From an uncultured Gammaproteobacteria bacterium (GTDB lineage Bacteria; Patescibacteriota; Patescibacteriia; UBA9934), in the NCBI GenBank assembly GCA_964582615.1, contig CAZORP010000005.1, positions 11,994-75,993 on the forward strand: 64,000 nt of DNA, read 5' to 3'. Positions within the stretch are counted from its first letter, which is position 1. Each line of letters begins with the position of its first letter. Position numbers and translations under genes: made by a program. Below the pieces are notes generated by a model. That model was given only the letters and a program-made list of their open reading frames with translations. It was not told where the DNA came from and did no database searches. Below are positions 7,692 through 36,636 of the stretch, one piece after another.

Positions 7692-7694
7692 CCT

Positions 7695-9446: not shown

Positions 9447-9516
9447 TAACCATCGAAAAGTTCCATCTTTTATTCATCTGCTACACTTTCTGAAAAAAAC
9501 TCTGAGATTCTTTTTT

Positions 9517-10044
9517 ATGCGCCACATTTCACTTAAAGATTTTCAAGATATCCTCAAAGAACACGGAAACGATGCAGATATTCTTTTTCTCAACGTTTGC
9601 ACACGAGAAGAATTTGCAACGCAACATATTGCAGGAGTAAAAAACATTCCCCTCGACGAACTCTCTCAACATCAAGAAGCCTTCAAAGATAAAAAGGCTC
9701 TCTACATTCATTGTCGATCGGGAAAACGTAGCGATGCCGCGTGTGTAACATTGGAGAATTTGGGATTTACCGGAGAGCTCTTTTCACTCGAAGGAGGCCT
9801 TCTCGCGTGGACATCAGCAGGACTTCCCATTCATCGCCTGAACAACGCTCTTCCCTTGCGGCAACAAATCTTTTTATGCGCCGGGATACTCATTCTTCTT
9901 GGCGTATTCTGCACCGTATTCTTTGGAAATATTTTTCTCATCATACCCTGTATCGTGGGTATTGGCATGACGATATCAGGCACAACCGGATGGTGCGGCA
10001 TGGAACTTCTTCTTAAAAAAATGCCTTGGAATCGGGGCAAGTAA
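9517..10044 (+). CDS. Rhodanese-domain protein fused to a C-terminal two-TM DUF2892/YgaP-like segment
   Basis: Active-site Cys in YIHCRSGKRSD; C-terminal hydrophobic helices with a GW motif. ATG at 9517 (the track ORF starts earlier, overlapping the ABC gene). Confidence 0.7.
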   Translation: MRHISLKDFQDILKEHGNDADILFLNVCTREEFATQHIAGVKNIPLDELSQHQEAFKDKKALYIHCRSGKRSDAACVTLENLGFTGELFSLEGGLLAWTSAGLPIHRLNNALPLRQQIFLCAGILILLGVFCTVFFGNIFLIIPCIVGIGMTISGTTGWCGMELLLKKMPWNRGK

Positions 10045-10060
10045 CCATCACGCTGGGCAT

Positions 10061-11572: not shown

Positions 11573-12002
11573 GCTCTTGTTCCAACTGGCGACCTTCTTC
11601 AATCAACGAAGCAAGATTCGTGCGCGCATTTTCCATGAGTACAACATCCTGCGATGAAGCCTTTTGAAGCTCCCCCTGTAAGCGAAGAAGCTCCCCCTGC
11701 AACACGTTGCATGCATTTTGCAAAAGTCCCTCATGAATTCCGCGATACCCACGCAAATGCTGGAGTTCTTTTCCAGAAGACCAACCTTGACCGCCCATAA
11801 AAGACCCACTCGCCCGACGAAGCAAACGCTGAAGTCGAAGAATGTACTCACGCGCTGTTTCGACATTCCAAGATCCGTTATACACCAAATCTCCCCCATC
11901 TAAAGGATTCTGCGCTCGGAGTATGTCATTCATCTGGGAAAGTGCCGCGCGATCACGTTCTGGATCTCTGAAAAATTTTTTCATTTGCTCAAAAATTCTC
12001 AT
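11559..12002 (-). CDS. Hypothetical protein (147 aa)
   Basis: ATG-initiated ORF convergent with phr; no recognised domain. Confidence 0.4.
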   Translation of the reverse strand: MRIFEQMKKFFRDPERDRAALSQMNDILRAQNPLDGGDLVYNGSWNVETAREYILRLQRLLRRASGSFMGGQGWSSGKELQHLRGYRGIHEGLLQNACNVLQGELLRLQGELQKASSQDVVLMENARTNLASLIEEGRQLEQELNRF

Positions 12003-12052
12003 ATAATATCAGTGTATCATAGAAGAGGTCTCATATTCCTTAACACCACCCA

Positions 12053-12670
12053 ATGTCTCAAGAAAAAAATCAGCACCCTCACACCTGGGAGGATTTTCGT
12101 GATGCATTTTATAGAAAAGGCCTTAAAATTGAAGGGGATTTTTCCAACTATCCACGCTACACACTTGATGTTCTTCCCGAATTATCCGAAATGACTCAAG
12201 CCCTCATGCGCGAGTGGGAGGACGCTTTCCTCGCAGAGCTTTCATCCATAACAAACAACAAAGAAATCATCAACTTTCTTACAAGTAACAACCGACACCT
12301 TCCAAGTTTCACACTTATACCCCCACAACAGGGGTACAACTTTATCAACAAAGAACGATCGCTTCGTCAAAGACGCTACCCTCTCGAGAGAACTTCAGCC
12401 ATCCTCATCTTCAACCTACCAAAAGTTTTTCAACGCTATTGGTGGAAAAGCAAGGAGGCAACTCGAGAAATGACCATCGCGTGGGGCTATCTTTACAATG
12501 TCATGATGAGAGTTTTTTGGAAGTACGGTGACGTTCTTGAAAATGGCAAGGGCCTTCCCCTATACCTCTCTCGGATCTCAGAAAAAAAGCGTCATGTAAA
12601 AAATGTCTATCATTACGTCTGGGAAGTCATCCCGGACCCCGTAAAGCCTTGGGATAACCTCAAGATATAA
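12053..12670 (+). CDS. Hypothetical protein (205 aa)
   Basis: ATG start and clean intergenic spacing; no recognised domain. Confidence 0.5.
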   Translation: MSQEKNQHPHTWEDFRDAFYRKGLKIEGDFSNYPRYTLDVLPELSEMTQALMREWEDAFLAELSSITNNKEIINFLTSNNRHLPSFTLIPPQQGYNFINKERSLRQRRYPLERTSAILIFNLPKVFQRYWWKSKEATREMTIAWGYLYNVMMRVFWKYGDVLENGKGLPLYLSRISEKKRHVKNVYHYVWEVIPDPVKPWDNLKI

Positions 12671-12715
12671 AGATTCTTCCTGCTATGCTATGGGGTGAAG
12701 ATTTTTTTCTTTACT

Positions 12716-14488
12716 ATGCATAGCTTTTTTAAAAAAATTGCGGCAGGAAGCGCGGTCTTTGCACTCGCAGGAGGGCCAAGTCTCGCACACGCCGCAAGTC
12801 TTATTACTGACGGAAACGATCCTCTTTTTGATTATTCCTTTACCGAGGAAAATACTTCATGGAGAATTACCACGACCTCAGATAGCGCAACGGTTGAGGA
12901 GATCGAAAGCGACTTCGTGGGAGAATCAGATCAACACCTCACCGACGACTCTGGTTGGTCGAGTATTTTCAGCGGAGATGATGACGACAGAAGTCTTGCT
13001 GTGGATCTTGGGTACTCGCTTTCATTTGGAGGAGAGGCATATGACACCGCATTTATCTCATCCAATACTTACATCAGCTTCCATGAAGGTTCAGAACTCT
13101 ACTGGGACCTCAGAGAAGACCGTCCCGCGCTTCCCAGCATCCACCTCTGTTCAGGAGATCACTCTTATCAAGAAGTTTACCAAGAAAATGGAGAAGGCTT
13201 TACCCGTATACGTTACGAAGGAACTGACGACACGGATGCTGGAGAAGATTCTCCTAATATCATTTACGAGGTAGTTTTCTACGCCGGAGAAAACTATATT
13301 GACGTCCACATGGGAACAAACGCGGCGTGTGATGGCGAAGACGGGAGCACTCTTCCCTATTTTCATGGCTATGCCGCCGTTGGCCAAACTCTTCATGGAA
13401 ACGAAGGAAACTTTCCAGCATCAGGAGCGCCCTACGAATACCAGTATCAGTGGCAGAGAGGGTTTGAGGGAGAATTCGAAGACATCGAAGATGCAACCCA
13501 ACTTCACTACACCATCACTGAAGAAGACATTGGAGCATCTTTGCGCCTTACCGTCACCGGAATAACTCTCGATGATGAGGAAATAATGCATATAAGTGAC
13601 CCTTCGGACGATGTCCAAGAAATCAACATCATCTCCTCGTGCGCTGAATTATTCGCCATTGATGAAACCCATGACTCAGGAGATGCCTTTGCACTTACAG
13701 GAAACATCGACTGCGACGGCGTAGAAACTCATCCACTCTGGTACTCTGGGGAATCGGGAGAAAACTTCACCGGATTATTTGATGGAAAAAATTACACCAT
13801 TGAGAACCTCTCACTATCATCATTGGGCCAAGGTGGTTTGTTTTATCAAATCGCCGACGATGCAGTAATCACCAATATAAACTTTACTGACTCTACTATC
13901 TCAGGAGAAGGCGATTACCTTGGAACTCTTTCTGGCTACATGACCGGAGGAACGATTACCAATATTACCATTGATGGGTCCGTTGATAACACCGGAGGCT
14001 ACACCGGAGGACTCATTGGAAATATTACCACTGGGGAAAGTTCCTATCCGGTTATTATTTCCAATGTTTATTTTACAGGAAGTGTACACGGTGACGGATC
14101 TTACACGGGAGGAATTGCAGGGTCTCTCTACAGTGGAGATGCTATGGAACTCGTCGACATCTCTCATCTTACTGTTGACGCTGATATTTCAGGTTCTTCT
14201 GACTACGTAGGAGGTATTGCAGGCCAAGCCAGCACCGACGATGGTCAGATTGATATCTCAACCTCAAGCGTACAAGGTAGCGTTGTTGGAGATTATGACT
14301 ACGTTGGTGGAATTGTAGGATTTGCAAGTGCATGGTCTGGTATTACAGGAACCATTGTTCGCATTGAGATGAATGATGTATATACCAGCGCAAACATCAG
14401 TGGAGTAGCAACGGTTGGTGGAATTGTTGGATCTGCCATTATAGGCCTGTCAGAAGGCAGTGACACTGAGATTAATATCCGCATATAG
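12716..14488 (+). CDS. Giant secreted surface protein A, 5' part: signal peptide plus GLUG-motif-like repeats. Interrupted by a frameshift near 14480.
   Basis: Signal peptide MHSFFKKIAAGSAVFALAGGPSLAHA. Repeated xYxGG(I/L)(A/V)G modules (YTGGLIGN, YTGGIAGS, YVGGIAGQ, YVGGIVGF, TVGGIVGS). Confidence 0.7.
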   Translation: MHSFFKKIAAGSAVFALAGGPSLAHAASLITDGNDPLFDYSFTEENTSWRITTTSDSATVEEIESDFVGESDQHLTDDSGWSSIFSGDDDDRSLAVDLGYSLSFGGEAYDTAFISSNTYISFHEGSELYWDLREDRPALPSIHLCSGDHSYQEVYQENGEGFTRIRYEGTDDTDAGEDSPNIIYEVVFYAGENYIDVHMGTNAACDGEDGSTLPYFHGYAAVGQTLHGNEGNFPASGAPYEYQYQWQRGFEGEFEDIEDATQLHYTITEEDIGASLRLTVTGITLDDEEIMHISDPSDDVQEINIISSCAELFAIDETHDSGDAFALTGNIDCDGVETHPLWYSGESGENFTGLFDGKNYTIENLSLSSLGQGGLFYQIADDAVITNINFTDSTISGEGDYLGTLSGYMTGGTITNITIDGSVDNTGGYTGGLIGNITTGESSYPVIISNVYFTGSVHGDGSYTGGIAGSLYSGDAMELVDISHLTVDADISGSSDYVGGIAGQASTDDGQIDISTSSVQGSVVGDYDYVGGIVGFASAWSGITGTIVRIEMNDVYTSANISGVATVGGIVGSAIIGLSEGSDTEINIRI

Positions 14489-15863
14489 CTCAGGACTTCT
14501 TACCACTACAGAAGGAGGGGCTGGAGGCATCATTGGATACGCTTCTTCACCACTTGAAAATACAAGAATAACCATTGATGACAGCTTCTCTCGAGCATCG
14601 TACGGAACTTCAGGATGGCCAAGTATTAACGCTTATTCCACAGAATTCCCTCCACAGGTTAGTAACTTCTCCTTCGATGCAACCGCGGCAGATACGCTTA
14701 TTTGTGACCAAGAAGAAGCTTTTTCCTGCACTGTTGTTAATGAATCGGCAGATGAAGATGATTTCTTCTTTATAACAACACATAGCCCAATGGACTCTTG
14801 GGATTTTGATGATGTGTGGCAAGAAGAAACCGATGCCCTTCCAACGCTCAGAGTTGTGTATACCTATACCGAGCCCCTCGTCACAACGACTCCCGCACAT
14901 GGACGAGCATCTCATCGCGCCACGCTTTCAGGAGAAATTCTTGATAACGGCGGAGCCGCAGTTACCGAAGTTGGCGTTATTTACGGAACAACACGAGAGT
15001 ACGGTAACACCGTATCAGACGAGGGATTCTTTGAAGCCGGCAGTTTCGATGTTACCGTAAGCGGACTTCACTGCGGAAGAACCTACTATTACCGCGCTTT
15101 TGCAATAAACCAAATGGGCACCACGCTCGGAAGAAGTGAAACCTTCAGAACCTCAAGTTGCGACGATGACACCCCATCATCGGGAGGAGGATCGTCATCA
15201 TTGCCGTCTATACCAGACGCTTCCAATGAAGACTCCTCAGAAGAGGCTACACCAGAAGACACATCATCAGGCGAAGAATCGTCAACCGAGGAGGAGGAAG
15301 ATGAGGAGCAATCCCCCATCCACCGCGATGACGCAACATCTTCCTACGACACCTCTCGTCAACGATTTGTTGCAGAAGATTCTGGAGAAGTAGATAGCTC
15401 AGGTCGAGCATTGTCACGTGTTGCTTCAGGATGGTTTGTTCGCAGTGAACAGTTCTCAACGGTGTACTACATTGATAGCTCTTATGTACGTCATCCACTT
15501 TGGGATACACAAACGTTCTTTACATGGGCAGATTCATGGGATGACATTACCTGGGTTACCGATGCTACCCTTGCAACCATGCCCCTTGGAAAGCCAGTGC
15601 TTCCTAAGTCTGGAGTGGTGCTTGTGAAACTTGAGAGTGATCCTTCGGTATATGCGGTAGATGAAGATACTTCAGGAAACAGTATCCTTCGCCGCGTTCC
15701 TTCCGAAGAAGATGCTCGTGCACTCTTTGGATCTTCTTGGCAGTCGTACGTCATTGATATTCCTCCTACGATCTTCCCTCACTTTGGTAAGGGATCTCCC
15801 CTGACCAAGGATGAGGCATGGGATGCGGGAGGGATGAAGGAACGAGCATTGTTAAGCCTTTAA
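14460..15863 (+). CDS. Giant surface protein A, 3' part (GTG-opened frame): more GLUG-like repeats, an Fn3-like domain, an acidic S/E-rich linker and the C-terminal domain shared with protein B
   Basis: Continues the repeats (GGAGGIIGYASS) in a different frame. Fn3-like GRTYYYRAFAINQMG. The last ~176 codons are identical to the end of the 21112-24552 ORF. Confidence 0.7.
   Translation: MTLRLISAYSSGLLTTTEGGAGGIIGYASSPLENTRITIDDSFSRASYGTSGWPSINAYSTEFPPQVSNFSFDATAADTLICDQEEAFSCTVVNESADEDDFFFITTHSPMDSWDFDDVWQEETDALPTLRVVYTYTEPLVTTTPAHGRASHRATLSGEILDNGGAAVTEVGVIYGTTREYGNTVSDEGFFEAGSFDVTVSGLHCGRTYYYRAFAINQMGTTLGRSETFRTSSCDDDTPSSGGGSSSLPSIPDASNEDSSEEATPEDTSSGEESSTEEEEDEEQSPIHRDDATSSYDTSRQRFVAEDSGEVDSSGRALSRVASGWFVRSEQFSTVYYIDSSYVRHPLWDTQTFFTWADSWDDITWVTDATLATMPLGKPVLPKSGVVLVKLESDPSVYAVDEDTSGNSILRRVPSEEDARALFGSSWQSYVIDIPPTIFPHFGKGSPLTKDEAWDAGGMKERALLSL
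15309..15836 (+). repeat. 528-bp perfect direct repeat, copy 1 (3' module of giant gene A)
   Basis: Identical line by line to 23989-24516 (offset 8680 bp); identity breaks at both flanks. Confidence 0.95.
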
Positions 15864-15891
15864 AAAAACACGCCTTCGGGCGTGTTTTTTT
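15862..15891. terminator. Bidirectional intrinsic terminator
   Basis: aaaaaaaCACGCCttcgGGCGTGttttttt lies between convergent genes. Confidence 0.8.
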
Positions 15892-15905
15892 ATATCTCGA
15901 GTTTT

Positions 15906-17762
15906 TTAGTACTCAGTAACGATATTGAGTTGGGGAATGTGCACCATTCCAGCAAGGATAAGATTTTGCATATCTTTTTCCTCGGGAGTCTTCGGGCTTG
16001 GCATCTCTCCCCCAAGATACATCTTTAACCACATTTTCTGTCCAAAGTCATACCCCTCAGCTCGACGTAAAGCCTTTCTTGCAAGATCATCTTCACCAAA
16101 AATTTCGCTTCGTGAGGTTCCGCGTAACTCCTCATCTTTTCGCAACGATGCAAAAGAGAGCATGTCTTCGTAAAGTTCAAGAAATGTTGCGAGATCTTTG
16201 GCATACTCCGCATGCGCGACACGTCGTCCAGAAAATATCTCAGAAGCATCGCCTTTCTCACGAAGAAGAATTTCCTTCAACCTGCCCGGAAGGCCACTCC
16301 ATAGGCGATCGCGCGCAACATAACTCATTATCTCGGATGATGTAAAACTTTCGCGATCAGACGGTGAGAGTTCAGCGATGCTCAAGCGGATTTCTTGTAC
16401 TGCGAATCGCAAACAGTCTCGACGTAATATGATACCAGGAAGACGATCGCCGAGAGAGTCTTTTCTTAGATTTTCCCTTGCTTTATATAAAGATTCCCGC
16501 ATCTTTATAAGTTCTTGACGACGGGGCTCAAGTTCTTTTCGAGCGCGCGCAACCTCCTGCAATTGATCGCGAAGATTTTCACTCTTTTTTTGCACGCCCT
16601 CTCTTCTCCACTTCCACGCATCATACGCATAGGCATCCTGAAGATGCTTTGGAAGTTCACCCTTCGCACCAGCAATTGCATCAGCAATAACATCAGGACG
16701 CTCAAGTTCGCTGCGAAGATTCTCCACATACGCTCTTGCTTGAGCAAGCTTCTGACCAAGTTGGCGCTTCTTCACTATTCTCCAAGAAGAACACTCCGCC
16801 TCTTCTTTTTCAAGCTCACGAAGACGAACCTCGCGCTCTGCGGCTCGCAATTTACTCTCAATTCGTTCAGATCGCTCTTGACGATTCTTGTACGAAAGCG
16901 CATCTCGCTCGTCTTCTTTAACAATACGAAGAGCTTCTTTTTGCATGCGAAGCTCATGGCTATCAAGCTGTTTCTTCGCTTTAAGACGTTCAAAAATATT
17001 CCAGAGCGGAATCTTTTCATACGCCGCCGTTAACATCTGCTGACGTTCACGAAACGACGCCCAAGAATGCGGGAGATTCTCGGACTTATCGTGAAGAGAC
17101 TCCCCGCGAAGAGCGGGTCTTTGAGGAACTCCAAGTACAACTCTTGTGATTTCTTTTTGAGGAACCCTCTCAACTTCAAGAGGAGTAATAAACCTATCAG
17201 GCAACTCTTCAAGAATACCTTCCGACGTATCAAGAGGGGCAAGGAATTCATCAGGCAACTCTTCCGGAATATTCAGTGAAAGAGTTTTAACGTGCATTAA
17301 CATTGCATCAAGAAGGTGCTCCTCAAGAAGCATTCCCTGCCTATCCCTCGCTCGACCATCAGCATCAGCTTCGCTTATCTGCTTATGGAGTTCTTGTCGG
17401 CGGCGTATAAGTACCGCTTGATACTTCTGCACGGAGGGAAACGCACCTACCTCACGATCAACGCGCTCCCTCGCAAGAAGAGCGGCGAGTTCTCGAGCTT
17501 CTCCAAGCACCTGAGCTCGACTGCCATCATATGGCCCAGTATTAACATACCTCTGCTTAAGAGAGCTCCAGTAACTCTCATGATCTATCCCAGATTCGAG
17601 ACGCAACTGTGCAAGTCTTCTTCCTGCATCCTGGAGAGCATCCGCCTTATTCCTTGGATCTTTATGAGGAACAACTCCTTGGGAAGACCCTACTTCTAAT
17701 CTTGGCGAGCGACGCTCTGGGGGTCTACGCTCTGGGGATCCAGATGCAGAAAATCTTTCCAT
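15906..17762 (-). CDS. Hypothetical highly charged coiled-coil protein (618 aa)
   Basis: Long ATG ORF rich in E/R/K/L heptad-like segments. Transcribed divergently from giant gene B. Confidence 0.6.
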   Translation of the reverse strand: MERFSASGSPERRPPERRSPRLEVGSSQGVVPHKDPRNKADALQDAGRRLAQLRLESGIDHESYWSSLKQRYVNTGPYDGSRAQVLGEARELAALLARERVDREVGAFPSVQKYQAVLIRRRQELHKQISEADADGRARDRQGMLLEEHLLDAMLMHVKTLSLNIPEELPDEFLAPLDTSEGILEELPDRFITPLEVERVPQKEITRVVLGVPQRPALRGESLHDKSENLPHSWASFRERQQMLTAAYEKIPLWNIFERLKAKKQLDSHELRMQKEALRIVKEDERDALSYKNRQERSERIESKLRAAEREVRLRELEKEEAECSSWRIVKKRQLGQKLAQARAYVENLRSELERPDVIADAIAGAKGELPKHLQDAYAYDAWKWRREGVQKKSENLRDQLQEVARARKELEPRRQELIKMRESLYKARENLRKDSLGDRLPGIILRRDCLRFAVQEIRLSIAELSPSDRESFTSSEIMSYVARDRLWSGLPGRLKEILLREKGDASEIFSGRRVAHAEYAKDLATFLELYEDMLSFASLRKDEELRGTSRSEIFGEDDLARKALRRAEGYDFGQKMWLKMYLGGEMPSPKTPEEKDMQNLILAGMVHIPQLNIVTEY

Positions 17763-17884
17763 ATCACTAAGTATACTTGAGTGCTTGTTTCACAGAAAAA
17801 ATTATACACATATTTTTTTTCAAAAAATGCTTTTTTAAAAAAGAAAACCAACTTAATTCGTGCTATTATAGAAAAAATTTTGCT

Positions 17885-20800
17885 ATGCATTTTTTCAAAA
17901 AATTTCTCTCACTTTTTAGCCTTATAACCCTTGGTATTTTAGCGGTACTTCACCCGACTATAACTCACGCCGATCCCGATACTACTCCCCCATCATTTGT
18001 ATCCGCCTATATTACCGGCGACCATAGCGTCACCATTACCTATTCAGAAACGCTTTGGTGGAATTTTTCTGATGCATATGCGAACTTTACCGGAGATTTT
18101 GCAGGAAAAAACATCATCGCACAGAGTGAAAATTCCTCAAGCAATCATATTGTCCTTATTTTTGACGGTCCTGTTTTTGAAAGCAACTTCTCGGGAACAC
18201 TCGATATTCTCGCGGGAGAAGTTCAGGACTTTTCAGGAAATGCCTTTGGTGGGCTTTCCGGTGTACTCATTACCCGCCAACCACAAGCAACACAAGTAAT
18301 CTGGAATGATGTCGACGCTTCAAGAGATTTTTCCGGAACCGATACCCTCACGGTGCAGTTCAGTACTGTCATGAACGAATCTTCAATTACCACAGAAAAC
18401 ATTGATAGCCGCCTCGGTCTTTCCGCGGGAACATTTGGAACTTCCGCCGCGGGACTTAGCCTCTCATGGGACCTCATGGGAGATCCCTCCTTCTCAACAC
18501 TCACCATTACTCTTGGCAGTGATACAACCATCGTTCACGGAGCAACCATCAATCCAAGCTCAAGCGTTACCAATAGCTCAGGAGCTCCGGACGCAACACC
18601 ATCAAACCTTATCCTCAGTACCGATTATTACTTTGCAGAATTTTGGAATCTTCCCGCGGAGTCCGATGAATCTCCAGCTTTTCCCACGGGAGAGCCGGAT
18701 TATCAATCAAATAGTGAGGAAATTAATTTCATGTGGAGTGAGGAATCTCCAAATCCCGCCATTAACACCGACGATTTTGCGGCTCGTTTTACAAGAACCA
18801 CAACACTTACCAACAATCATTACACCTTTTCCTTCAGCGAACTTGATGACGGAGTCAAACTTTATATTGATGATGAACTCATCTTTTCTTCATGGGTCGA
18901 TCAGGGATCCGCAAGTTATAACGTAGAAGCTCGAATAACACCAGGAGAACACACCATCGTTCTGGAATATTATGAAAACGGTGGAGGTGCAGGTATTATC
19001 TTTAGCATGTCAGGTGACACGCTCGCGGACACTGTGTATGTTGATTCCACATATGCAAGCGAACTTGCCAACGATGGTCACACCTGGGGTTACGACGCAT
19101 TTTCAAATATTTTTAGCGCCATTAGCGCGACTGCGGGAAATGGAACCGTACACATCGGTGATGCAGAGTGGGCAACTTCTGACAGCATCAATCTCACCTT
19201 CCCTATTACCATAGATGGCGAAGGTGCAGGCATAACTCGAATAAAAAACGTTTCCTGTACAACGGTATTTAACATTCAATCAAGCAACGTTACCATTCAA
19301 GATCTTACCGCAGGAAGTTACGACGGTTTTGGATCGGATCTCTGCACAAGTAGTGACGTTATTTACGCGGTTGGAACGTCCACGACACCAATTAGTTCAA
19401 TTTCACTTTCCCATGTAGACCTCCACGGTGGAGATGGAGGAGTTTATTTTGGCGAATATATTTCAGACGCTACCGTTACCGGAAGTACAGTATCGGAAGC
19501 ATATACAGGAATTTACCTTGCCAGCTCAACTGATGTTACAATCTCGGGATCGACACTTGAAAACAATACCGCGGAAGCAATCTTCTTTACCCTTGGATCC
19601 TGCGAGGAATGCAGTCTCATGCCACCGTCAATGATCACTATTGACGACAACCTCATTCAAGGAAATCTTGGCGCGGGAATTACCCTAGAAACCGGCGACA
19701 CCATTACCATTTCTTCAAATACCATCTCCGATAACGGATGGGATTGGTGGGATATCTCAGGCGGTATCGTTGTACGAGGAGAGTGGGGGGAAACGCGCAG
19801 TCTTACTATTTCAGGAAATACCCTCTCTCAAAATTCAGCTCACGGTATCTACATTCATCAACCAACTGACCTTGAAGCAGATGCTCCAACACTAAGCGAC
19901 AACATCATCGTTCGAACAGGCATGAATGATGCCGACGAAACATATCCTGCAACGGCAGGTGTAACAATTCTTGCTTCAAGCGTTACCTGTGAGGGAAATT
20001 CTATTGGAGAAAATTCAGGATCGGGTATCGTCCTTGGAAGTATCGATGTTTACCCAGAAAATGTTACGATCAGTACCAATATCCTTGGATCTTTTACGCT
20101 TCCCGATACAACTTCCTACGGAGGAAATACCGCGAATGGTCTCACCGTCGTCCACTTCGCCGGCACCGCAAATAGCATTCACCAAAACATTATTAGAGAT
20201 AATGCATTACTCGCCGCAGAAAATAGCAATGGCTCTGAGATTGACTTAACACTCAACTACTGGGGACATTTTACGGGACCATTTCATTCTTCGGAGCACA
20301 TGACTGGTCGAGGCGATACCATTGGTAACGATATTCTTTTTACACCCTACAATGAAGGACCGGAAACCCTCACGCTTAACGATCCTCTTGTAAGTTTCTT
20401 TAGCGCCCCTGAAGATGCCTCAGAAATCACCGACGCTACGCTTGGCGTAGTACTTGAAACCAGCGCATCTCGAGATCAGCACGCAGCTTTCGTTTCTCGC
20501 AACGATGACCTTTTAGCCTTCTGGAGATTTGAGAACATGGGACCAAATGAGGGATCTTTAAGCATCCCTATGAACGTTGGCGGAGCAGACCCCTATCTTT
20601 ATCAAGGACATTACGGAAGCTCAGCAAAATTCGATGGTGTGAGTGCACTTTTCGCAAATGAAAGCATCCTTTCATCACGTCCAGAGTTTACCCTTGCAGG
20701 ATGGGTTTACATCGACGAAGACGTGCTCTCAGGTCAACGACGCGGATTCTTCGGTGAGAATAATGCCTTTGAAGTTGGTTTTGACACCGATCACCTCACC

Positions 20801-21355
20801 ATTTATACCGACCTTGTAGGAAATGTTAGTTGGGAGGTAACTCCAGAAAATTTCCCTGTTCGCACATGGCATCACATTGCCGCAGTTTTTGAACCTTCCG
20901 GAACAAATCCCCTTACGCTTTATGTTGATGGCGTAGCTGTTGCCGAAGGTGGCAGTTCTGGACCCTATGTCACGGAAGGATTCTACGAATCCCCTCTTGC
21001 GCTTGGCGGTGCGTCATTGACGCTTCCTGTGGGGACGATGCGCTTGTTGGAAGACTTGATGATGTATTTCTCTTCAATCGAGCACTGCAAAGCGACGAAG
21101 TCCTCTCCCTTATGGACGCAGGAGAAAATCCCTACACGAATCTTACCTACCCACTTGATGACGGTGAGTACACTATTCAAGGTTTCGTTATTGATGGCGG
21201 TGGCGACATGGAATCAACCTCGTCGCGGTCATTCTTTGCAACATACACCCCTCCTGTATACAGCCTCTACGTTGACGATGACTACACGCCCGAAGGAGAA
21301 AATGATGGTCATGTTTGGGGAGAAACAGCATTCGCGGATCTTGATAGCGCGCTAG
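17885..21355 (+). CDS. Giant secreted surface protein B, 5' part: signal peptide, PA14 domain, parallel beta-helix (PbH1) repeats and a LamG/ConA-like domain. The frame breaks by -1 near 21017; the last ~110 codons of this ORF are out of frame.
   Basis: Signal peptide MHFFKKFLSLFSLITLGILAVLHPTITHA. PA14-like DDGVKLYIDDELIFSSW...YYENGGGAGIIF. PbH1 repeats (NTISDNGWDWWDISGGIVV, NTLSQNSAHGIYIH). LamG core TLAGWVYIDED...TLYVDGVAV. Confidence 0.75.
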   Translation: MHFFKKFLSLFSLITLGILAVLHPTITHADPDTTPPSFVSAYITGDHSVTITYSETLWWNFSDAYANFTGDFAGKNIIAQSENSSSNHIVLIFDGPVFESNFSGTLDILAGEVQDFSGNAFGGLSGVLITRQPQATQVIWNDVDASRDFSGTDTLTVQFSTVMNESSITTENIDSRLGLSAGTFGTSAAGLSLSWDLMGDPSFSTLTITLGSDTTIVHGATINPSSSVTNSSGAPDATPSNLILSTDYYFAEFWNLPAESDESPAFPTGEPDYQSNSEEINFMWSEESPNPAINTDDFAARFTRTTTLTNNHYTFSFSELDDGVKLYIDDELIFSSWVDQGSASYNVEARITPGEHTIVLEYYENGGGAGIIFSMSGDTLADTVYVDSTYASELANDGHTWGYDAFSNIFSAISATAGNGTVHIGDAEWATSDSINLTFPITIDGEGAGITRIKNVSCTTVFNIQSSNVTIQDLTAGSYDGFGSDLCTSSDVIYAVGTSTTPISSISLSHVDLHGGDGGVYFGEYISDATVTGSTVSEAYTGIYLASSTDVTISGSTLENNTAEAIFFTLGSCEECSLMPPSMITIDDNLIQGNLGAGITLETGDTITISSNTISDNGWDWWDISGGIVVRGEWGETRSLTISGNTLSQNSAHGIYIHQPTDLEADAPTLSDNIIVRTGMNDADETYPATAGVTILASSVTCEGNSIGENSGSGIVLGSIDVYPENVTISTNILGSFTLPDTTSYGGNTANGLTVVHFAGTANSIHQNIIRDNALLAAENSNGSEIDLTLNYWGHFTGPFHSSEHMTGRGDTIGNDILFTPYNEGPETLTLNDPLVSFFSAPEDASEITDATLGVVLETSASRDQHAAFVSRNDDLLAFWRFENMGPNEGSLSIPMNVGGADPYLYQGHYGSSAKFDGVSALFANESILSSRPEFTLAGWVYIDEDVLSGQRRGFFGENNAFEVGFDTDHLTIYTDLVGNVSWEVTPENFPVRTWHHIAAVFEPSGTNPLTLYVDGVAVAEGGSSGPYVTEGFYESPLALGGASLTLPVGTMRLLEDLMMYFSSIEHCKATKSSPLWTQEKIPTRILPTHLMTVSTLFKVSLLMAVATWNQPRRGHSLQHTPLLYTASTLTMTTRPKEKMMVMFGEKQHSRILIAR

Positions 21356-24300
21356 AAATCGCAACGCCAAACTCAACGATCACCATGGCATCGGGCTATT
21401 ACGAAACTGTTCTTGGTTACGATATCACTCTCGAAGGACTCACCATCGAAGGCCCTGAAGACATGAGTGCACGTATCGTAAATCCGCTCTGCGGGGATGT
21501 TTTTAACATCTACGCACCATCGGTCACCATCACCCACCTCACCCTCGAAGAACGCGATGGCGATGGAGCGATCTGTGAAGAAAATGAGGTCATAAGCCTA
21601 TGGCATGATCCTGAAAGCATATGGGACGCTTCGTCTGCCGAAATAAGTTACAACGTCATCACGGGAGGTTATCGAGGAGTATATCTCTCAGGACACATGG
21701 AGGACGTAACTATTACATCAAACACCATCTCTGAAAGTACATATGGCATTCGATCTTACGGTGGAAAACGAACAGTTATCGACGATAATACTATTATAGA
21801 AAATTTTATTGGTATTCGTTTTGATGACCATGACTGTAGCGAGGAAGGCTGTGAAAGTTATCCCGAAGACGTCATCATTCAATTCAACAACATCAGCTAT
21901 AACGACGAAGACGGTCTTAATCTTGACGAAGGAAAACGAACCATCGTTTCGGGCAATGCCTTCTTCGAAAATGGTCATGATTCTGAATTTGGAGGAGGAA
22001 TCTACATATCCGACATCGGACTTGATGGAACAGAAATTGATACAAATACGTTCATCAACAACGTATCTTACGGTATCTACATCTCTGCTGAGGAAACCAG
22101 CGCGGAAAGCCCTATATCTATCACGAATAACACCATTCTTCAAGACACCGTAGGTGAGGATACTCGCGGAATTGATGTAAATGGAGACTATATTTCCATC
22201 ACCGAAAATAGTATCGCCGGCTACGCTGAAGGAATTCGCGCCTGCAGTGACTATCTCAATACTGCAACCATTTCCGAAAATACCCTCGGAGCCATCACTA
22301 TCGAAGATACAAGTTTCCCCGGAAACACCATCGGACTAGGCATGTACTGCGGAGACACTGTCACCGTTGAGCGTAATACCTTTTCAGGAAACGAAGTCGG
22401 TCTTCATAACTTTTCAACAGAAACCGTGACCGCTCAATACAACTACTGGGGTGCGGCATCAGGACCAACAAACCTCACCAACCCCGAGGGATCCGGAGAT
22501 CAGCTCAATGAAAACGACGGCATCTTCACTAATCCTTATACTTACGGAGAAGAAGATGGAACGTATCATTTCCTTGTAACACTTTCCGCTCCCAACAACA
22601 ACGTCATCTACCGTCCCTTCTTTAGCGATGAAGAAATGACTACGGAAGTCACCGGAGAAAACATCCCCTTCACGTTAACTCGAGCAGGCGTTAGCTTTGG
22701 AGAGTCCTCCGTTGAAGAGTCCACCTTAGCGCAAGAGGACAGCGAAGGTCTCCTCTTTGGAGAATATACCTTCACAAGCGACAGCCCACTTTCCTGTGGA
22801 AGATCTTATCTTTACCGCTACGATGCAACGCTTAACGATGAGGTATTCCTTTCAACAACGGAAACCTTTATCGCCGATGCGTGTACCGATAACGAAGGAC
22901 CTGAAATCGTTACTATTTCAGCAGAAGCAGAAGAGACGACCGCGACGCTCTCCTTTGAAACCAATGAACGATCGTCGTACCTTCCTCGAATTGGCACACA
23001 CCTCGATCTTCTTGAAGAACTCTTCCTTGAGGACGATGCATTTACTACAGCAGAACATACTGCAGAATTTGATGAACTTACCCCCTGTACGAAGTACTAC
23101 GTCACTCTTGAACTCTCTGACAGTCTTGGAAATGTCTCAACAGATACCGTGGCAGAATTTACCACGCAAGGATGTCCCGGAAATGCAGAAATGGTGAATA
23201 TTGGAACGGAAATTTTTGACCCCGAAGAAAGCGAATTGTTTGGACTTTCCGCCGAAGATTTCTCAGCCAGCATTTTCGCAGATGAAGACTTCTTCATTCT
23301 TCCCACCGCCTTCCAAATGTCACTCTTTATTGCCGATGAAGTTTTTGACGGTATGGGCGATCCCGCAAGAACAACACTCGCAAGCTCACACCTTGCCCAA
23401 GTGAATGCTTTCGTTTTTGGAACCAATCTTGTAGAAACCCTAAGTGAACCCATTTCCGTCAGTGTAAACTACGACGCCGAACTCGTTCCCGAAGAAGATC
23501 TTGAAAAACTCTTCATCTACAGCTATCGCAACCATCACTGGAGTAAACTCTCTGACTGCACCACGGACACCGAGGAATATCGCATTACATGTACTACCGA
23601 CGAGCCCGGGCTCTTTGGAGCTTTTATCCAGGAAGATCGTCGATCGTCATCATCAGCACCAGCAACGCCTCCTCGCGTCGTTTCGGAAACCCCAGAAGGA
23701 ACCGTGCCAACCTGCACCCTACCTCGAAAAACCACCTCACTCAACATCCCCTTCTCTTGTACCGCAACGGGAAGCTCAACACGTTCCATGAGCTTTACCG
23801 AAACCTACCAAGGAAAAACATCCTTATCCTCTGGTCGCTACACTTCCAAAGATACCCTTCTTCTTCGCGAAGGCGCCGGAGAACACACCATTGTCATCAC
23901 ACTTACATCACAGACGGGAGAAATCCTCACCCTACCCACGTTTACCGTCACGGTAGAAGATGCCCACGGACAGATCTCAACATCATCTCAATCCCCCATC
24001 CACCGCGATGACGCAACATCTTCCTACGACACCTCTCGTCAACGATTTGTTGCAGAAGATTCTGGAGAAGTAGATAGCTCAGGTCGAGCATTGTCACGTG
24101 TTGCTTCAGGATGGTTTGTTCGCAGTGAACAGTTCTCAACGGTGTACTACATTGATAGCTCTTATGTACGTCATCCACTTTGGGATACACAAACGTTCTT
24201 TACATGGGCAGATTCATGGGATGACATTACCTGGGTTACCGATGCTACCCTTGCAACCATGCCCCTTGGAAAGCCAGTGCTTCCTAAGTCTGGAGTGGTG

Positions 24301-24552
24301 CTTGTGAAACTTGAGAGTGATCCTTCGGTATATGCGGTAGATGAAGATACTTCAGGAAACAGTATCCTTCGCCGCGTTCCTTCCGAAGAAGATGCTCGTG
24401 CACTCTTTGGATCTTCTTGGCAGTCGTACGTCATTGATATTCCTCCTACGATCTTCCCTCACTTTGGTAAGGGATCTCCCCTGACCAAGGATGAGGCATG
24501 GGATGCGGGAGGGATGCTCTCTCGCGCACAGATTTCCGCCGCATCGTTATAG
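20930..24552 (+). CDS. Giant surface protein B, 3' part: completes the LamG domain (..GRLDDVFLFNRALQSDEVLSLMDAGENP), then more PbH1 repeats with NYWG..SGP motifs, Ig/Fn3-like domains and the shared C-terminal domain. The frame is open from ~20930; the first ATG is at 21112.
   Basis: The canonical LamG terminal motif lies in the +2 frame immediately after the break. Beta-helix repeats follow (NTISESTYGIRSYGG, NNISYNDEDGLNLDEG). Confidence 0.75.
23989..24516 (+). repeat. 528-bp perfect direct repeat, copy 2 (3' module of giant gene B)
   Basis: Identical to 15309-15836. Confidence 0.95.
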
Positions 24553-24587
24553 ACGTTTTTCCGCACACGTGGTACATCTGAGTCTCT

Positions 24588-25853
24588 ATGCGCCAACGCG
24601 AAGCACTTGCACTCATGTGTGCGGGAAATAATATTTTTCTCACAGGAGAACCGGGATCGGGGAAAAGTCACACCCTACGAACGTTCTGCGCATTTCTTCG
24701 CGCAGAGCATCGCAATTTTGCGGTAACCGCAAGCACCGGAATTGCCGCAACGCACATCGGAGGAACCACCATTCACGCGTGGAGCGGCATTGGTATCGCA
24801 AAACATCTCACCAAAAAAGCCTGCAAAGACCGAGGAAAAATCAATGGCTGTGCAAAGCGTATCGCAAATACTGAAGTCCTTATTATCGACGAAGTTTCCA
24901 TGCTTGATGCACAAGTTCTCGATACCGTGGATCTCATGTGTCGCGTACATCGCACCGCAGATCTCCCCTTCGGAGGTATGCAGGTTGTTTTTGTTGGAGA
25001 TTTCTTTCAACTCCCTCCTGTCGCACGTCACGATGAACCTCCTGCAAAATTCGCATTTCAAAGCGATGCATGGCAATCTCTCGACCTGCAGATTTGTTAT
25101 CTTGATGAACAGCACCGACAAGAAGACCCTCTTTTTCTTGAACTTCTTCGCGATATCCGCAAAGGGTCACCCACCGCAAAGCATCTCGAAACATTACAAA
25201 CTCGCATTCGAAAAACCGCACCAGAACATACAAAGCTTTTCTGCACCAATCTTGATGTCGACACCATGAACGCAGAGCATCTTTCCCGCATCAAAGAACC
25301 CCTCAAGGCTTTCACCATGACTACATTTGGAAATCCAAAAGCGATTGAGCAATTACAACGAGGATGCCTATCCCCCGAACGCCTTGAGCTGAAAAAGGGA
25401 GCTCGCGTCATGGTGACGAAAAATCTTCCCAGCAAACGATTGGTTAACGGAAGTATTGGTATTGTGGAAGATTTCGCAAAAGAAACTCACCTACCTCTTG
25501 TGCGATTTCCTTCCGGATCTCTTGTAAGCTTTGAACCCGAGGTTTGGAGCTTTGAAGGAACCAAAGAGGAACAAGCGAGCATTCGCCAAATTCCTCTTCG
25601 ACTTGCGTGGGCTATTACCATTCACAAGAGTCAAGGCATGTCACTCTCCGAAGCGTATATCGATCTTGAGAAGACGTTTACCTACGGCCAAGGCTACGTT
25701 GCTCTTTCTCGCGTGCGCACGCTGGCAGGCATTACACTTAAGGGAATTTCACCAAGAGCTCTCGAGGTGCATCCGGATATTCTTGTTTTCGACAATCACC
25801 TTCGCACCGCATCAAAAACCCTTGTGCCACAAAGAAAGAAGACGCTTTTTTGA
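24588..25853 (+). CDS. PIF1/RecD-like superfamily-1 DNA helicase
   Basis: Walker A FLTGEPGSGKSH; motif II LIIDEVSMLD; VVFVGDFFQLPPV. Confidence 0.8.
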   Translation: MRQREALALMCAGNNIFLTGEPGSGKSHTLRTFCAFLRAEHRNFAVTASTGIAATHIGGTTIHAWSGIGIAKHLTKKACKDRGKINGCAKRIANTEVLIIDEVSMLDAQVLDTVDLMCRVHRTADLPFGGMQVVFVGDFFQLPPVARHDEPPAKFAFQSDAWQSLDLQICYLDEQHRQEDPLFLELLRDIRKGSPTAKHLETLQTRIRKTAPEHTKLFCTNLDVDTMNAEHLSRIKEPLKAFTMTTFGNPKAIEQLQRGCLSPERLELKKGARVMVTKNLPSKRLVNGSIGIVEDFAKETHLPLVRFPSGSLVSFEPEVWSFEGTKEEQASIRQIPLRLAWAITIHKSQGMSLSEAYIDLEKTFTYGQGYVALSRVRTLAGITLKGISPRALEVHPDILVFDNHLRTASKTLVPQRKKTLF

Positions 25854-25917
25854 GGAAAAATCCTTATTTCATGCATGAATTTGAAAAAATGCCAAAAATG
25901 TGGTATACTAAAAAGTT

Positions 25918-26769
25918 ATGCATGAACAGCCAAAAAACACTCAAGATACTCTCACTCAAGAGACTCTTCTTGTAAAAGACGCAATCAAAATTCTTCGAGA
26001 AAAACTAGGGACAGCCTCACACCAAACCCTCAAACAAAGCCTCGTGGGACTTAGGTCAACACCAGGCTTGAGCGAAGAAGTTATTCGGGATCTTCAAGGG
26101 GGAAAACTTACCCAACGCGTTCTTGATGCCATCATCGCCATGCGCCCAAGCCTTCGTCCTGAAGGTTTTTTGGGTATTGATGAATTCTGTACTGCAGTTG
26201 GCTGTTCTCCAGATGAAGCAAAGATCAACGGTCTCCTTGATCGCTTTATGAAGCTTTACGGAGATTCAAATGTACTAAAAAGCTTTGATGTGTGGAGAGC
26301 CGGGGGTCATCGCTTTCCAGAAATTGGCGTCTTTGCTCGGTCTCCAAAAAATGGCTACGAAACATTTTTCTTTGCACCGGAAAGTGTCAAGTTATTCAAG
26401 GAATTCATAAAAGAGCATCGCAAAAAGCAAAAACTTCCAACGCAACCACCACTTCAGAACGAAGGAGTCCCCCTTCAAGAACTCACGGGAGCTATATATT
26501 CCCCTTCGAATCCTTCAAAAAAATTACCGGCAACCTTCGTAGCAGAAAGACCAGAAGCAAGTCCAAATCAACCCGATCGCTCACCACTCATAAACCGATG
26601 CTCAAGGCTTCTTAATGAAGACAATCGCTTAAAAAACTTACACTCTGATGAACGAAAGCGTGTTGCCGAGATTCTTGCACGACTCAACAAGCAAGAAGCC
26701 ATCGATCCTTCAACTGGAAGATTGCTCGCGCAACATATTGCAAAAATAGAAAGCCGTATCAAGGCTTAG
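25918..26769 (+). CDS. Hypothetical protein (283 aa)
   Basis: ATG ORF followed by the terminator at 26815-26841. Confidence 0.5.
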   Translation: MHEQPKNTQDTLTQETLLVKDAIKILREKLGTASHQTLKQSLVGLRSTPGLSEEVIRDLQGGKLTQRVLDAIIAMRPSLRPEGFLGIDEFCTAVGCSPDEAKINGLLDRFMKLYGDSNVLKSFDVWRAGGHRFPEIGVFARSPKNGYETFFFAPESVKLFKEFIKEHRKKQKLPTQPPLQNEGVPLQELTGAIYSPSNPSKKLPATFVAERPEASPNQPDRSPLINRCSRLLNEDNRLKNLHSDERKRVAEILARLNKQEAIDPSTGRLLAQHIAKIESRIKA

Positions 26770-26814
26770 CAAGTCGGGAATATAGCTCTTTTCGCTAAGC
26801 GGAATTTTATGCAC

Positions 26815-26841
26815 AAAAACCACCCTACAGGGTGGTTTTTT
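26815..26841 (+). terminator. Intrinsic terminator
   Basis: aaaaacCACCCtacaGGGTGGtttttt. Confidence 0.75.
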
Positions 26842-26897
26842 GAATCTTATCTTTACTTTATAAGAATAAAAAATCACTGAACATGTCAGTGATTTTT

Positions 26898-26972
26898 TGG
26901 TGACTCTACCGGGAATCGAACCCGGATTTAAGGCTTGAGAAGCCTCTGTCCTAACCGTTAGACGATAGAGCC
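26898..26972 (-). tRNA. tRNA-Glu (anticodon CUC), CCA encoded
   Basis: Cloverleaf folds by hand: acceptor GGCTCTA/TAGAGTC, anticodon stem GAGGC/GCCTT with loop TTCTCAA, T-arm CCGGG-TTCGATT-CCCGG. A hairpin terminator lies at 26868-26897. Confidence 0.85.
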
Positions 26973-34938: not shown

Positions 34939-34941
34939 TGT

Positions 34942-36633: not shown

Positions 36634-36636
36634 TGT

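What the first reader, a model, noticed from the sequence alone, without database searches (positions are those of the whole stretch)
20990..21120. Frameshift inside the LamG domain of giant surface gene B (single A deletion in tcaattgac)
In frame 1 the LamG domain reads ...ESPLALGGASLTLPVGTMRLLEDLMMYF... (nonsense). The canonical LamG ending ..IDASCGDDALVGRLDDVFLFNRALQSDEVLSLMDAGENPY is in the +2 frame from ~21017 and continues to 24552. The sequence ggtgcgtcattgacgct would read GGAS-IDAS if one A were restored (tca att gac). So 17885-24552 is one ~2220-aa gene (signal peptide, PA14, PbH1 repeats, LamG, more PbH1 with NYWG motifs, Ig/Fn3-like domains, shared C-terminal domain) that is either inactivated or mis-assembled. 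Both giant genes being frameshifted is notable.
Basis: seen in the sequence. Interest (0 to 1): 0.55.

Follow-up and report, generated by a model that had tools for sequence, protein, structure and literature searches.

The report
Frameshifted giant surface-protein gene
A 2,222-codon gene for a giant secreted surface protein of an uncultured Patescibacteria (CPR) bacterium is broken by one missing base inside its LamG domain, which is most likely a recent inactivating mutation or an assembly error and is an ordinary finding.

Summary
The frame break is real in the sequence. Frame 1 is open from ATG 17885 and has no stop before 21353. Frame 0 has 67 stops before 20928 and none from there to 24552. 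Codon-usage signal swaps between the two frames at about 21000-21050 with equal strength on both sides. Adding one base gives a 2,222-aa protein and raises the Pfam Laminin_G_3 match from 51 bits (profile 14-123) to 76 bits (profile 14-150).

Any one-base insertion between 21011 and 21035 scores the same (75.6-77.7 bits), and that interval contains a GGGG run.

I found no slippery heptamer, no simple-sequence tract and no stable downstream RNA structure, so recoding and classical phase variation are unlikely.

The second giant gene (12716-15863) is also frame-broken. That break is reproduced base for base in an independent Logan assembly of SRR16481183, which matches the window at 15,114 of 15,114 bases. 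The Logan contig stops 590 nt short of the gene B site, so real mutation versus consensus error stays open (about 0.6 vs 0.3). All conserved genes I tested in the window are full length. No orthologue exists for comparison.

Verdict: a recent frameshift pseudogene or an artefact, of low interest.

The parts
17885..17971 (+). Start codon and predicted signal peptide of gene B (MHFFKKFLSLFSLITLGILAVLHPTITHA|DPD)
   Evidence: Read from the translation: a KK n-region, a hydrophobic core and a THA|D site. No signal-peptide predictor was available, so this is inference.
18683..18991 (+). PA14 domain (residues 267-369)
   Evidence: Pfam PF07691, 41.5 bits, E 1.5e-10.
19256..20065 (+). First right-handed beta-helix (PbH1/NosD-like) block; the NYWG motif follows at about 20300
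   Evidence: Pfam Beta_helix and NosD on residues 458-727. NCBIfam para_beta_helix repeat.
20669..21102 (+). LamG (Laminin_G_3) domain, split across two reading frames
   Evidence: As it stands, profile 14-123 of 151 at 51.3 bits. After a one-base repair, profile 14-150 at 75.9 bits.
21011..21035 (+). Interval that must contain the frame break (one base missing, net -1).
   Evidence: The junction scan gives a plateau of 75.6-77.7 bits inside the interval and lower scores outside it. Homopolymer list. The hard limits are the frame-0 stop at 20926-20928 and the frame-1 stop at 21353-21355.
21036..21355 (+). Out-of-frame tail of ORF1 (about 106-113 nonsense codons, then TAG)
   Evidence: Translation. 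Codon-usage score in frame 1 turns negative here.
20929..24552 (+). Downstream reading frame (frame 0). First ATG at 21112. A gene caller started it at ATG 21385 (1,055 aa, P0005).
   Evidence: No stops over about 1,200 codons. Coding signal +0.263 bit/codon. P0005 is identical to window 21385-24552.
21604..22065 (+). Second beta-helix (PbH1/NosD-like) block
   Evidence: Pfam Beta_helix 67.9 bits and NosD 51.4 bits on ORF2 residues 165-318. 31% identity to P0001 across this module.
22900..23166 (+). Weak fn3-like segment
   Evidence: Pur_ac_phosph_N, E 0.004, 18.1 bits, below the cut-off of 30. Suggestive only.
23989..24516 (+). 3' cassette identical to gene A (copy 2 of the 528-bp exact repeat). 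It encodes a linker plus a ~147-aa C-terminal domain (about 24094-24534).
   Evidence: Exact repeat with sharp edges. The domain family has 4,066 representatives and sits at the very C-terminus.
12716..15863 (+). Gene A, the second giant surface gene (GLUG/M26-N-like repeats plus the same C-terminal cassette). It is also frame-broken within 14445-14488 (frame 1 to frame 2, one extra base).
   Evidence: Translations and stop counts. Pfam and NCBIfam give weak GLUG, M26_N and ZmpB matches. The same two ORFs occur on Logan contig L004, which matches window 7291-15338 exactly.
15309..15836 (+). Copy 1 of the 528-bp exact repeat (3' end of gene A)
   Evidence: Logan contigs end or start exactly 30 nt inside the repeat (15338, 15807, 24487).

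Best explanation
Gene B was, until recently, a single 2,222-codon gene for a secreted giant surface protein. Its domains run signal peptide, PA14, beta-helix, LamG, beta-helix, Ig/fn3-like region, then a ~147-aa C-terminal module found on many secreted Patescibacteria proteins.

In the genotype that was assembled, one base has been lost between 21011 and 21035, inside the second-to-last part of the LamG jelly-roll. Translation from ATG 17885 therefore leaves the native frame after about residue 1044-1050, reads about 110 nonsense codons and stops at 21353.

The product would be a secreted 1,156-aa fragment with an incomplete LamG domain. It would lack the second beta-helix, the Ig-like region and the C-terminal module. 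The downstream 1,146 codons have no signal peptide or ribosome-binding site of their own, so they are effectively silent.

The downstream frame is still completely open and carries undiminished codon bias. The lesion is therefore very young: a fresh pseudogene or a null allele segregating in the population, in a fast-evolving and dispensable surface-protein locus.

Shown: the break, its interval, the one-gene architecture and the intact coding signal on both sides. Inferred: that the deletion exists in the cells' DNA and is not a consensus error, and the fate of the products.
For: There is a single clean frame switch. The LamG match is completed only across the two frames.

The assembly is reliable wherever it can be checked. 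Three contigs from an independent Logan assembly of SRR16481183 match the window at 8,048 + 4,617 + 2,449 = 15,114 bases with no mismatch. One of them reproduces the other giant gene's frameshift with the same two ORFs.

All conserved genes I tested in the window give full-length domain matches. These include the Era-like GTPase, Mur ligase, tRNA-U5 methyltransferase, Dus, beta-CASP RNase, BipA, RpoD, DnaG, ProRS and the MFS transporters. The only two breaks therefore fall in the ~10 kb of surface-protein genes, not at random along 64 kb.

The locus is lineage-specific and variable. No close homologue of the LamG region turned up among 5.8 billion proteins, the GTDB representative genomes or the JGI metagenomes. 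In the nearest relative found, the ABC-transporter pair abuts the helicase directly, and different giant genes with the same C-terminal module lie next to it as intact ORFs of 2,091 and 751 aa.
Against: There is no read-level or independent-assembly evidence at the gene B site itself. Logan contig L003 ends at 20423, 590 nt upstream. ORF1 and ORF2 are on record only from the NCBI assembly.

That contig end is unexplained. It could mean low coverage or strain heterogeneity in this stretch, which are the conditions in which consensus indels arise. The candidate interval also contains a G4 run, a typical place for an indel error.

The complete absence of secondary damage in 1,146 downstream codons is expected equally if the gene is actually intact.
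Confidence: 0.6

Rival explanations
1. Consensus or assembly error. The organism carries an intact 2,222-codon gene, and one base was dropped when the metagenome-assembled contig was built or polished. Low coverage, mixed strains or a miscalled G run could each cause this.
For: The site could not be checked against any second assembly. The Logan contig stops at 20423 although its last 30-mer is unique in the window. ORF1 and ORF2 are recorded from NCBI only. A GGGG run lies in the interval. The downstream frame is perfectly preserved.
Against: The window agrees with the independent Logan assembly at all 15,114 comparable bases, including the other frameshift. No tested conserved gene in the window is broken. 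G4 is a short run, and the error-prone homopolymers of long-read data are usually longer (general knowledge).
Confidence: 0.3
2. Population heterogeneity or an on/off allele. Intact and frameshifted versions of the gene coexist in the community, with selection by phage or host contact acting on a surface protein, and the assembler picked the null allele. The identical 528-bp 3' cassette shared with gene A would permit recombination between the two loci.
For: Both giant surface genes carry single-base frame breaks while the tested conserved genes are intact. There is a 528-bp exact repeat with sharp borders. The Logan contig breaks inside gene B without a repeat in the window to explain it.
Against: Neither site has a simple-sequence tract, which is the hallmark of reversible switching: only CC at the gene A site and at most G4/C4 here. 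No variant sequence was seen, and only one Logan sample carries the organism.
Confidence: 0.08
3. Programmed recoding. The full-length protein is made by -1 ribosomal frameshifting or transcriptional slippage at the overlap.
For: The shift needed is -1, and the two frames overlap by about 430 nt.
Against: There is no X_XXY_YYZ heptamer anywhere in 20900-21100 and no A or T run. The RNA downstream, 21020-21120, folds no better than shuffled sequence (z = -0.32). The break lies inside a beta-sandwich domain, where a truncated product has no evident use. Gene A would need the opposite (+1) shift at an unrelated sequence. No homologues exist to show conservation of a site.
Confidence: 0.02

Closest known systems
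Frameshift pseudogenes of large adhesin or surface-protein genes in bacterial genomes
   Same: A single-base indel splits one long secreted-protein gene into two adjacent overlapping ORFs. The break lies inside a recognisable domain, and both halves keep their coding signature.
   Different: No orthologue or second strain is available to show the intact state, and the host is an uncultured Patescibacteria genome known only from a metagenome assembly.
Local indel errors in metagenome-assembled genomes
   Same: An isolated one-base frame break in an otherwise open long gene, next to a short homopolymer. This is indistinguishable from a real mutation without reads.
   Different: The assembly is otherwise reproduced exactly by an independent assembly over 15.1 kb, including the sister gene's frameshift.
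Phase-variable contingency loci (slipped-strand mispairing in surface-protein genes, e.g. Neisseria and Haemophilus adhesins; general knowledge)
   Same: The target is a surface-exposed protein, switching off is by a one-base frame change, and two such genes in one locus are affected.
   Different: There is no homopolymer or short tandem repeat of the length that drives reversible slippage.
Programmed -1 frameshifting (dnaX, IS elements, phage tail assembly chaperone genes; general knowledge)
   Same: Two overlapping frames related by -1.
   Different: There is no slippery heptamer and no stimulatory structure, and the site is inside a folded domain.
Multidomain PbH1 / LamG / PA14 secreted proteins with a lineage-specific C-terminal module
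   Same: Domain content matches. The C-terminal ~147-aa module is shared with thousands of secreted multidomain proteins carrying S8 protease, Big_5, Calx-beta, Metallophos, fn3 or GDSL lipase domains.
   Different: The exact protein has no close homologue. The only hit to the central region is 31% identical and covers the beta-helix module only.

Membership tests
Laminin_G_3 / concanavalin-A-like lectin domain (PF13385) | Match to the full-length profile above the gathering score | tested here: met
   75.9 bits against a cut-off of 27.6, profile 14-150 of 151, but only after a one-base repair. As it stands the match is 51.3 bits over profile 14-123.
Right-handed parallel beta-helix (PbH1) proteins (PF13229 / PF05048 / TIGR03804) | Repeated PbH1 units scoring above cut-off | tested here: met
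   Beta_helix 125 bits over 6 stretches and NosD 87.5 bits on the repaired protein. para_beta_helix repeat 41.2 bits.
PA14 domain (PF07691) | Profile match above cut-off | tested here: met
   41.5 bits against a cut-off of 24.
Frameshift pseudogene | One frame break inside an otherwise continuous coding region, with a known domain continuing in the other frame | tested here: met
Frameshift pseudogene | The break is present in the organism's DNA (reads or an independent assembly) | not testable with these tools
   The Logan contig ends at 20423. Cut gene products are not indexed: the control 846-aa product was absent. Guessed look-ups failed. The sister gene A's break is independently reproduced.
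Frameshift pseudogene | Intact orthologue in related genomes | tested here: inconclusive
   No orthologue exists in the collections searched. The relative L009 lacks the gene but has intact giant genes with the same C-terminal module.
Programmed -1 ribosomal frameshift site | Slippery heptamer X_XXY_YYZ in the zero frame within the overlap | tested here: not met
   None in 20900-21100.
Programmed -1 ribosomal frameshift site | Stable stimulatory RNA structure 5-9 nt downstream | tested here: not met
   Minimum free energy -26 kcal/mol against a shuffle mean of -25, z = -0.32.
Phase-variable contingency locus | Long homopolymer or short tandem repeat at the switch point | tested here: not met
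   The longest runs in 20929-21060 are C4 and G4. The gene A site has only CC.

The most novel reading that the evidence does not exclude
The two giant genes could be a variable surface-protein pair in a CPR bacterium. Their identical 528-bp 3' cassette would be kept identical by gene conversion, and the single-base frame breaks would be alternative off states that coexist with intact alleles in the population. That would be a form of surface variation without simple-sequence repeats in an episymbiotic lineage.
Probability: 0.06. Interest if true: 0.5.

Novelty: new member of a known kind. Interest (0 to 1): 0.14.

Why it matters
It matters mainly for annotation. Windows 17885-21355 and 21112-24552 (or 21385-24552) should be treated as one disrupted gene, not as two proteins. 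The ORF1 tail is not a real sequence.

If the break is real, this population has just lost, or is losing, a 2,222-aa surface protein, and its neighbour gene A too. That is a small data point on how quickly envelope proteins turn over in Patescibacteria. If it is an artefact, it marks a spot where the public assembly needs correction. Neither outcome changes any general understanding.

The by-product with more reuse value is the unannotated ~147-aa C-terminal module. It has more than 4,000 representative proteins, always sits at the very C-terminus, and gives a confident predicted fold.

Tried and rejected
(1) Reaching the gene B site in the independent Logan assembly. Look-ups of ORF2 from 21112 and from 21385, of ORF1 from 17885, and of guessed cut products starting at 20396 and 20426 all returned nothing. 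Exact look-ups of cut products, including a positive control known to be called on L003, showed that such products are not in the protein collection. This route is closed.

(2) Comparison with orthologues. A protein search with the repaired 509-aa region found one 31% hit that covers only the beta-helix. Scans of the GTDB representatives and the JGI metagenomes found only remote domain-level matches. Searches also failed to return the window's own ORFs, although these are in the collection. Absence of near-identical hits in those two calls is therefore not evidence.

(3) An apparent pattern of split genes in the two homologues of the C-terminal domain (L005, L006). It turned out to be 10-N runs in those records, not frameshifts.

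(4) Recoding. There is no slippery heptamer and no significant RNA structure.

(5) An internal promoter or terminator that would make ORF2 a separate gene. Consensus scans found nothing above the shuffle expectation, and ATG 21112 has no Shine-Dalgarno-like sequence upstream.

(6) Pinning the missing base with the LamG profile. The scores form a plateau and cannot resolve it.

(7) PDB sequence search with the repaired LamG domain found nothing.

(9) A paper search for the SRA run found nothing.

Full report
**1. The observation**

Three-frame translation shows the long upstream frame (frame 1, ATG 17885) running ...YESPLALGGASLTLPVGTMRLLEDLMMYFSSIEH... to a TAG at 21353-21355. The frame one base back (frame 0) reads ...VIDASCGDDALVGRLDDVFLFNRALQSDEVLSLMDAGENPY... 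and stays open to the TAG at 24550-24552.

Stop counts make the switch unambiguous:
- Frame 1 has 0 stops in 17885-21016 and 26 afterwards.
- Frame 0 has 67 stops before (the last at 20926-20928) and none afterwards.

A codon-usage log-odds model trained on 21 other genes of the window gives +0.265 bit/codon in frame 1 upstream and +0.263 in frame 0 downstream. The other frames are negative, and the crossover falls in the windows 20960-21200.

Pfam completes the picture. ORF1 as it stands matches Laminin_G_3 over profile positions 14-123 of 151 (51.3 bits). A one-base repair gives 14-150 (75.9 bits) within a 2,222-aa protein. That protein has PA14 (residues 267-369), two Beta_helix/NosD blocks and LamG (residues 929-1073).

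**2. Where exactly the break lies**

I built hybrid proteins with the junction moved codon by codon and scored them against Pfam.

| Junction position | Laminin_G_3 score (bits) |
|---|---|
| 20999 | 69.3 |
| 21005 | 70.9 |
| 21011 | 75.6 |
| 21017 | 77.5 |
| 21023 | 77.0 |
| 21029 | 77.7 |
| 21032 | 75.8 |
| 21038 | 74.5 |
| 21044 | 72.4 |
| 21050 | 68.2 |

The break therefore lies in about 21011-21035, and the profile cannot say where within that interval. The interval contains a GGGG run (21031-21034). The specific A-deletion claim is only one possibility.

**3. What the gene is**

The N-terminus (MHFFKKFLSLFSLITLGILAVLHPTITHA|DPD) looks like a signal peptide. This is read from the sequence only, since no predictor was available. 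The domains that follow are those of a secreted carbohydrate-binding or adhesin-like giant protein.

The last 528 nt before the final 36 nt of the gene are identical, base for base, to the 3' end of gene A (15309-15836 = 23989-24516), and similarity stops abruptly at both borders.

The encoded ~147-aa module has no Pfam or NCBIfam model. A three-sequence profile of it finds 4,066 cluster representatives (3,122 at E <= 1e-10) among 1.84 billion proteins. In the best 150 it sits at the extreme C-terminus: a median of one residue follows it, and 142 of 150 have 15 or fewer.

It is attached to very different extracellular domains:
- an S8 protease
- Big_5, Calx-beta, Metallophos, fn3, GDSL lipase and LamG_2

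With 33 sequences, AlphaFold2 gives pLDDT 96.2. Foldseek against PDB finds only marginal similarity to the repeat domains of EccB1 (E 0.04, probability 0.72, TM 0.33). Those repeats have themselves been likened, weakly, to the cell-wall-binding PlyCB (PMC4769845). I read the module as a generic C-terminal localisation or anchoring domain. This is inference, not a demonstrated function.

**4. The organism and its relatives**

The neighbouring PIF1-type helicase has named relatives only in Patescibacteria: Uhrbacteria, Andersenbacteria, Brennerbacteria, Parcubacteria and Pacebacteria. The best non-self hit is 58% identical. This is a CPR bacterium without close sequenced relatives.

Searches gave no orthologue of gene B. 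The repaired LamG region found none in 5.8 billion proteins (the single 31% hit aligns only to the beta-helix). None turned up in the GTDB representative genomes or the JGI metagenomes.

In the relative L009, the pair of ABC transporters abuts the helicase directly. Two other large genes (2,091 and 751 aa) with the same C-terminal module lie beside it as intact single ORFs. The region is thus a variable surface-protein island, and giant proteins of this class are normally single ORFs.

**5. Is the break real DNA or an artefact?**

The window's proteins are on record from an NCBI contig of 79,794 bp. An independent Logan assembly of SRA run SRR16481183 contains the same organism. Three of its contigs match the window exactly:

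| Logan contig | Window span |
|---|---|
| L004 | 7291-15338 |
| L003 | 15807-20423 |
| L001 | 24487-26935 |

That is 15,114 bases without a mismatch. The contigs end exactly 30 nt inside the 528-bp repeat on three flanks, as expected for a true two-copy repeat in a k = 31 graph.

L004 spans gene A's frame break and carries the same two ORFs (590 aa, then a second overlapping frame). That break is therefore not peculiar to one assembler. It lies in 14445-14488, goes from frame 1 to frame 2 and corresponds to one extra base, probably at ATCCGC.

L003 stops at 20423, 590 nt before the gene B break, although its last 30-mer is unique in the window. I could not reach the next Logan contig. Look-ups need exact products, and cut products are not indexed. 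The state of the reads at 21011-21035 remains unknown.

All conserved genes I tested elsewhere in the window gave full-length matches. These are the Era-like GTPase, Mur ligase, GT2, tRNA-U5 methyltransferase, HhH-GPD glycosylase, beta-CASP RNase, Dus, BipA, RpoD, DnaG, ProRS, the MFS transporters and others. Both breaks therefore fall in about 10 kb of surface-protein genes out of about 57 kb of coding sequence. For two randomly placed errors that would happen about 3% of the time. This is a rough figure, because breaks in unannotatable ORFs could go unnoticed.

**6. Mechanistic alternatives**

*Recoding.* The region 20900-21100 holds no X_XXY_YYZ heptamer and no A or T run. The RNA at 21020-21120 folds no better than shuffles (z = -0.32). 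Gene A would need the opposite shift at an unrelated sequence. I reject recoding (about 2%).

*Classical phase variation.* There is no simple-sequence tract at either site. A non-SSR on/off polymorphism in the population remains possible (about 8%). It would fit the unexplained contig end inside gene B.

*ORF2 as an independent gene.* It has no signal peptide. It starts inside a beta-sandwich domain. Nothing promoter- or RBS-like precedes ATG 21112 or ATG 21385.

**7. Conclusion**

The most likely account (0.6) is a very recent one-base deletion that turns gene B into a pseudogene or null allele. The result would be a secreted 1,156-aa fragment with a broken LamG domain and about 110 nonsense residues. 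It would lack the distal beta-helix, the Ig-like region and the C-terminal module. The main rival (0.3) is a consensus error in the metagenome assembly.

Both are ordinary explanations. Reads at 21011-21035 would settle the matter.

**8. Novelty and interest**

This is a new instance of a well-known kind of feature: a frameshift-disrupted surface-protein gene, or a local assembly error. A specialist would not be surprised, and no open question becomes testable. Interest is 0.14.

The most novel reading not excluded is a recombining, switchable pair of surface genes in a CPR bacterium. I give it about 6%.

Noticed in passing
window 15309-15836 and 23989-24516: A 528-bp perfectly identical direct repeat forms the 3' cassette of both giant genes. 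Similarity ends abruptly at both borders, and the last ~10 codons differ (gene A ...GGMKERALLSL, gene B ...GGMLSRAQISAASL). This suggests recent gene conversion or cassette exchange. Logan contigs break 30 nt inside it on three flanks, so the repeat is real.
   Followed up: yes
window 14445-14488 (gene A, 12716-15863): The second giant surface gene (GLUG/M26-N-like repeats) is also frame-broken, here by one extra base (frame 1 to frame 2, probably at ATCCGC). The break is reproduced exactly in the independent Logan contig L004.
   Followed up: yes
window about 24094-24534 (also 15414-15854); P0004-P0153: An unannotated ~147-aa C-terminal domain family with 4,066 representative proteins. It is always at the very C-terminus of secreted multidomain proteins and has no Pfam or NCBIfam model. 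The AlphaFold2 model has pLDDT 96.2. The only PDB resemblance is marginal, to EccB1 repeat domains (E 0.04). It may be worth describing as a Patescibacteria anchoring or sorting module.
   Followed up: partly
window 20394-20423 (end of Logan contig L003): The independent assembly stops here although the terminal 30-mer is unique in the window. This is either a coverage gap or strain heterogeneity inside gene B, and it is unexplained.
   Followed up: partly
window 5976-25853 compared with L009 6414-11704: In the nearest relative found (helicase 57% identical) the two ABC-transporter genes directly abut the PIF1 helicase. In the window, the rhodanese gene, the photolyase gene, gene A, a 618-aa charged ORF and gene B lie between them. 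L009 has different giant genes (2,091 and 751 aa) with the same C-terminal module on the other side of the helicase. This looks like a variable surface-protein island.
   Followed up: partly
window 33259-38340: Three tandem genes of 559, 563 and 567 aa lie in the same frame, each starting one codon after the previous stop. They are diverged paralogues (22-25% identity) with no Pfam or NCBIfam match.
   Followed up: partly
window 15862-15891: A perfect bidirectional terminator-like hairpin (A-run, CACGCC-TTCG-GGCGTG, T-run) sits between the convergent gene A and the 618-aa ORF. The consensus scan did not list it.
   Followed up: no
window 24588-26769: The PIF1-type helicase is 421 aa and lacks the HTH_40 C-terminal domain carried by most of its ~560-aa homologues. 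It is followed, in another frame, by a 283-aa ORF with no family match. I did not examine whether this is a further rearrangement.
   Followed up: no
L005 786-795 and L006 1045-1054: Both public homologues of the C-terminal domain appear as split ORFs only because the records contain runs of 10 N. In L005 the run is inside the S8 protease GTSxAAP motif. These gaps mimic frameshifts in gene calls.
   Followed up: yes
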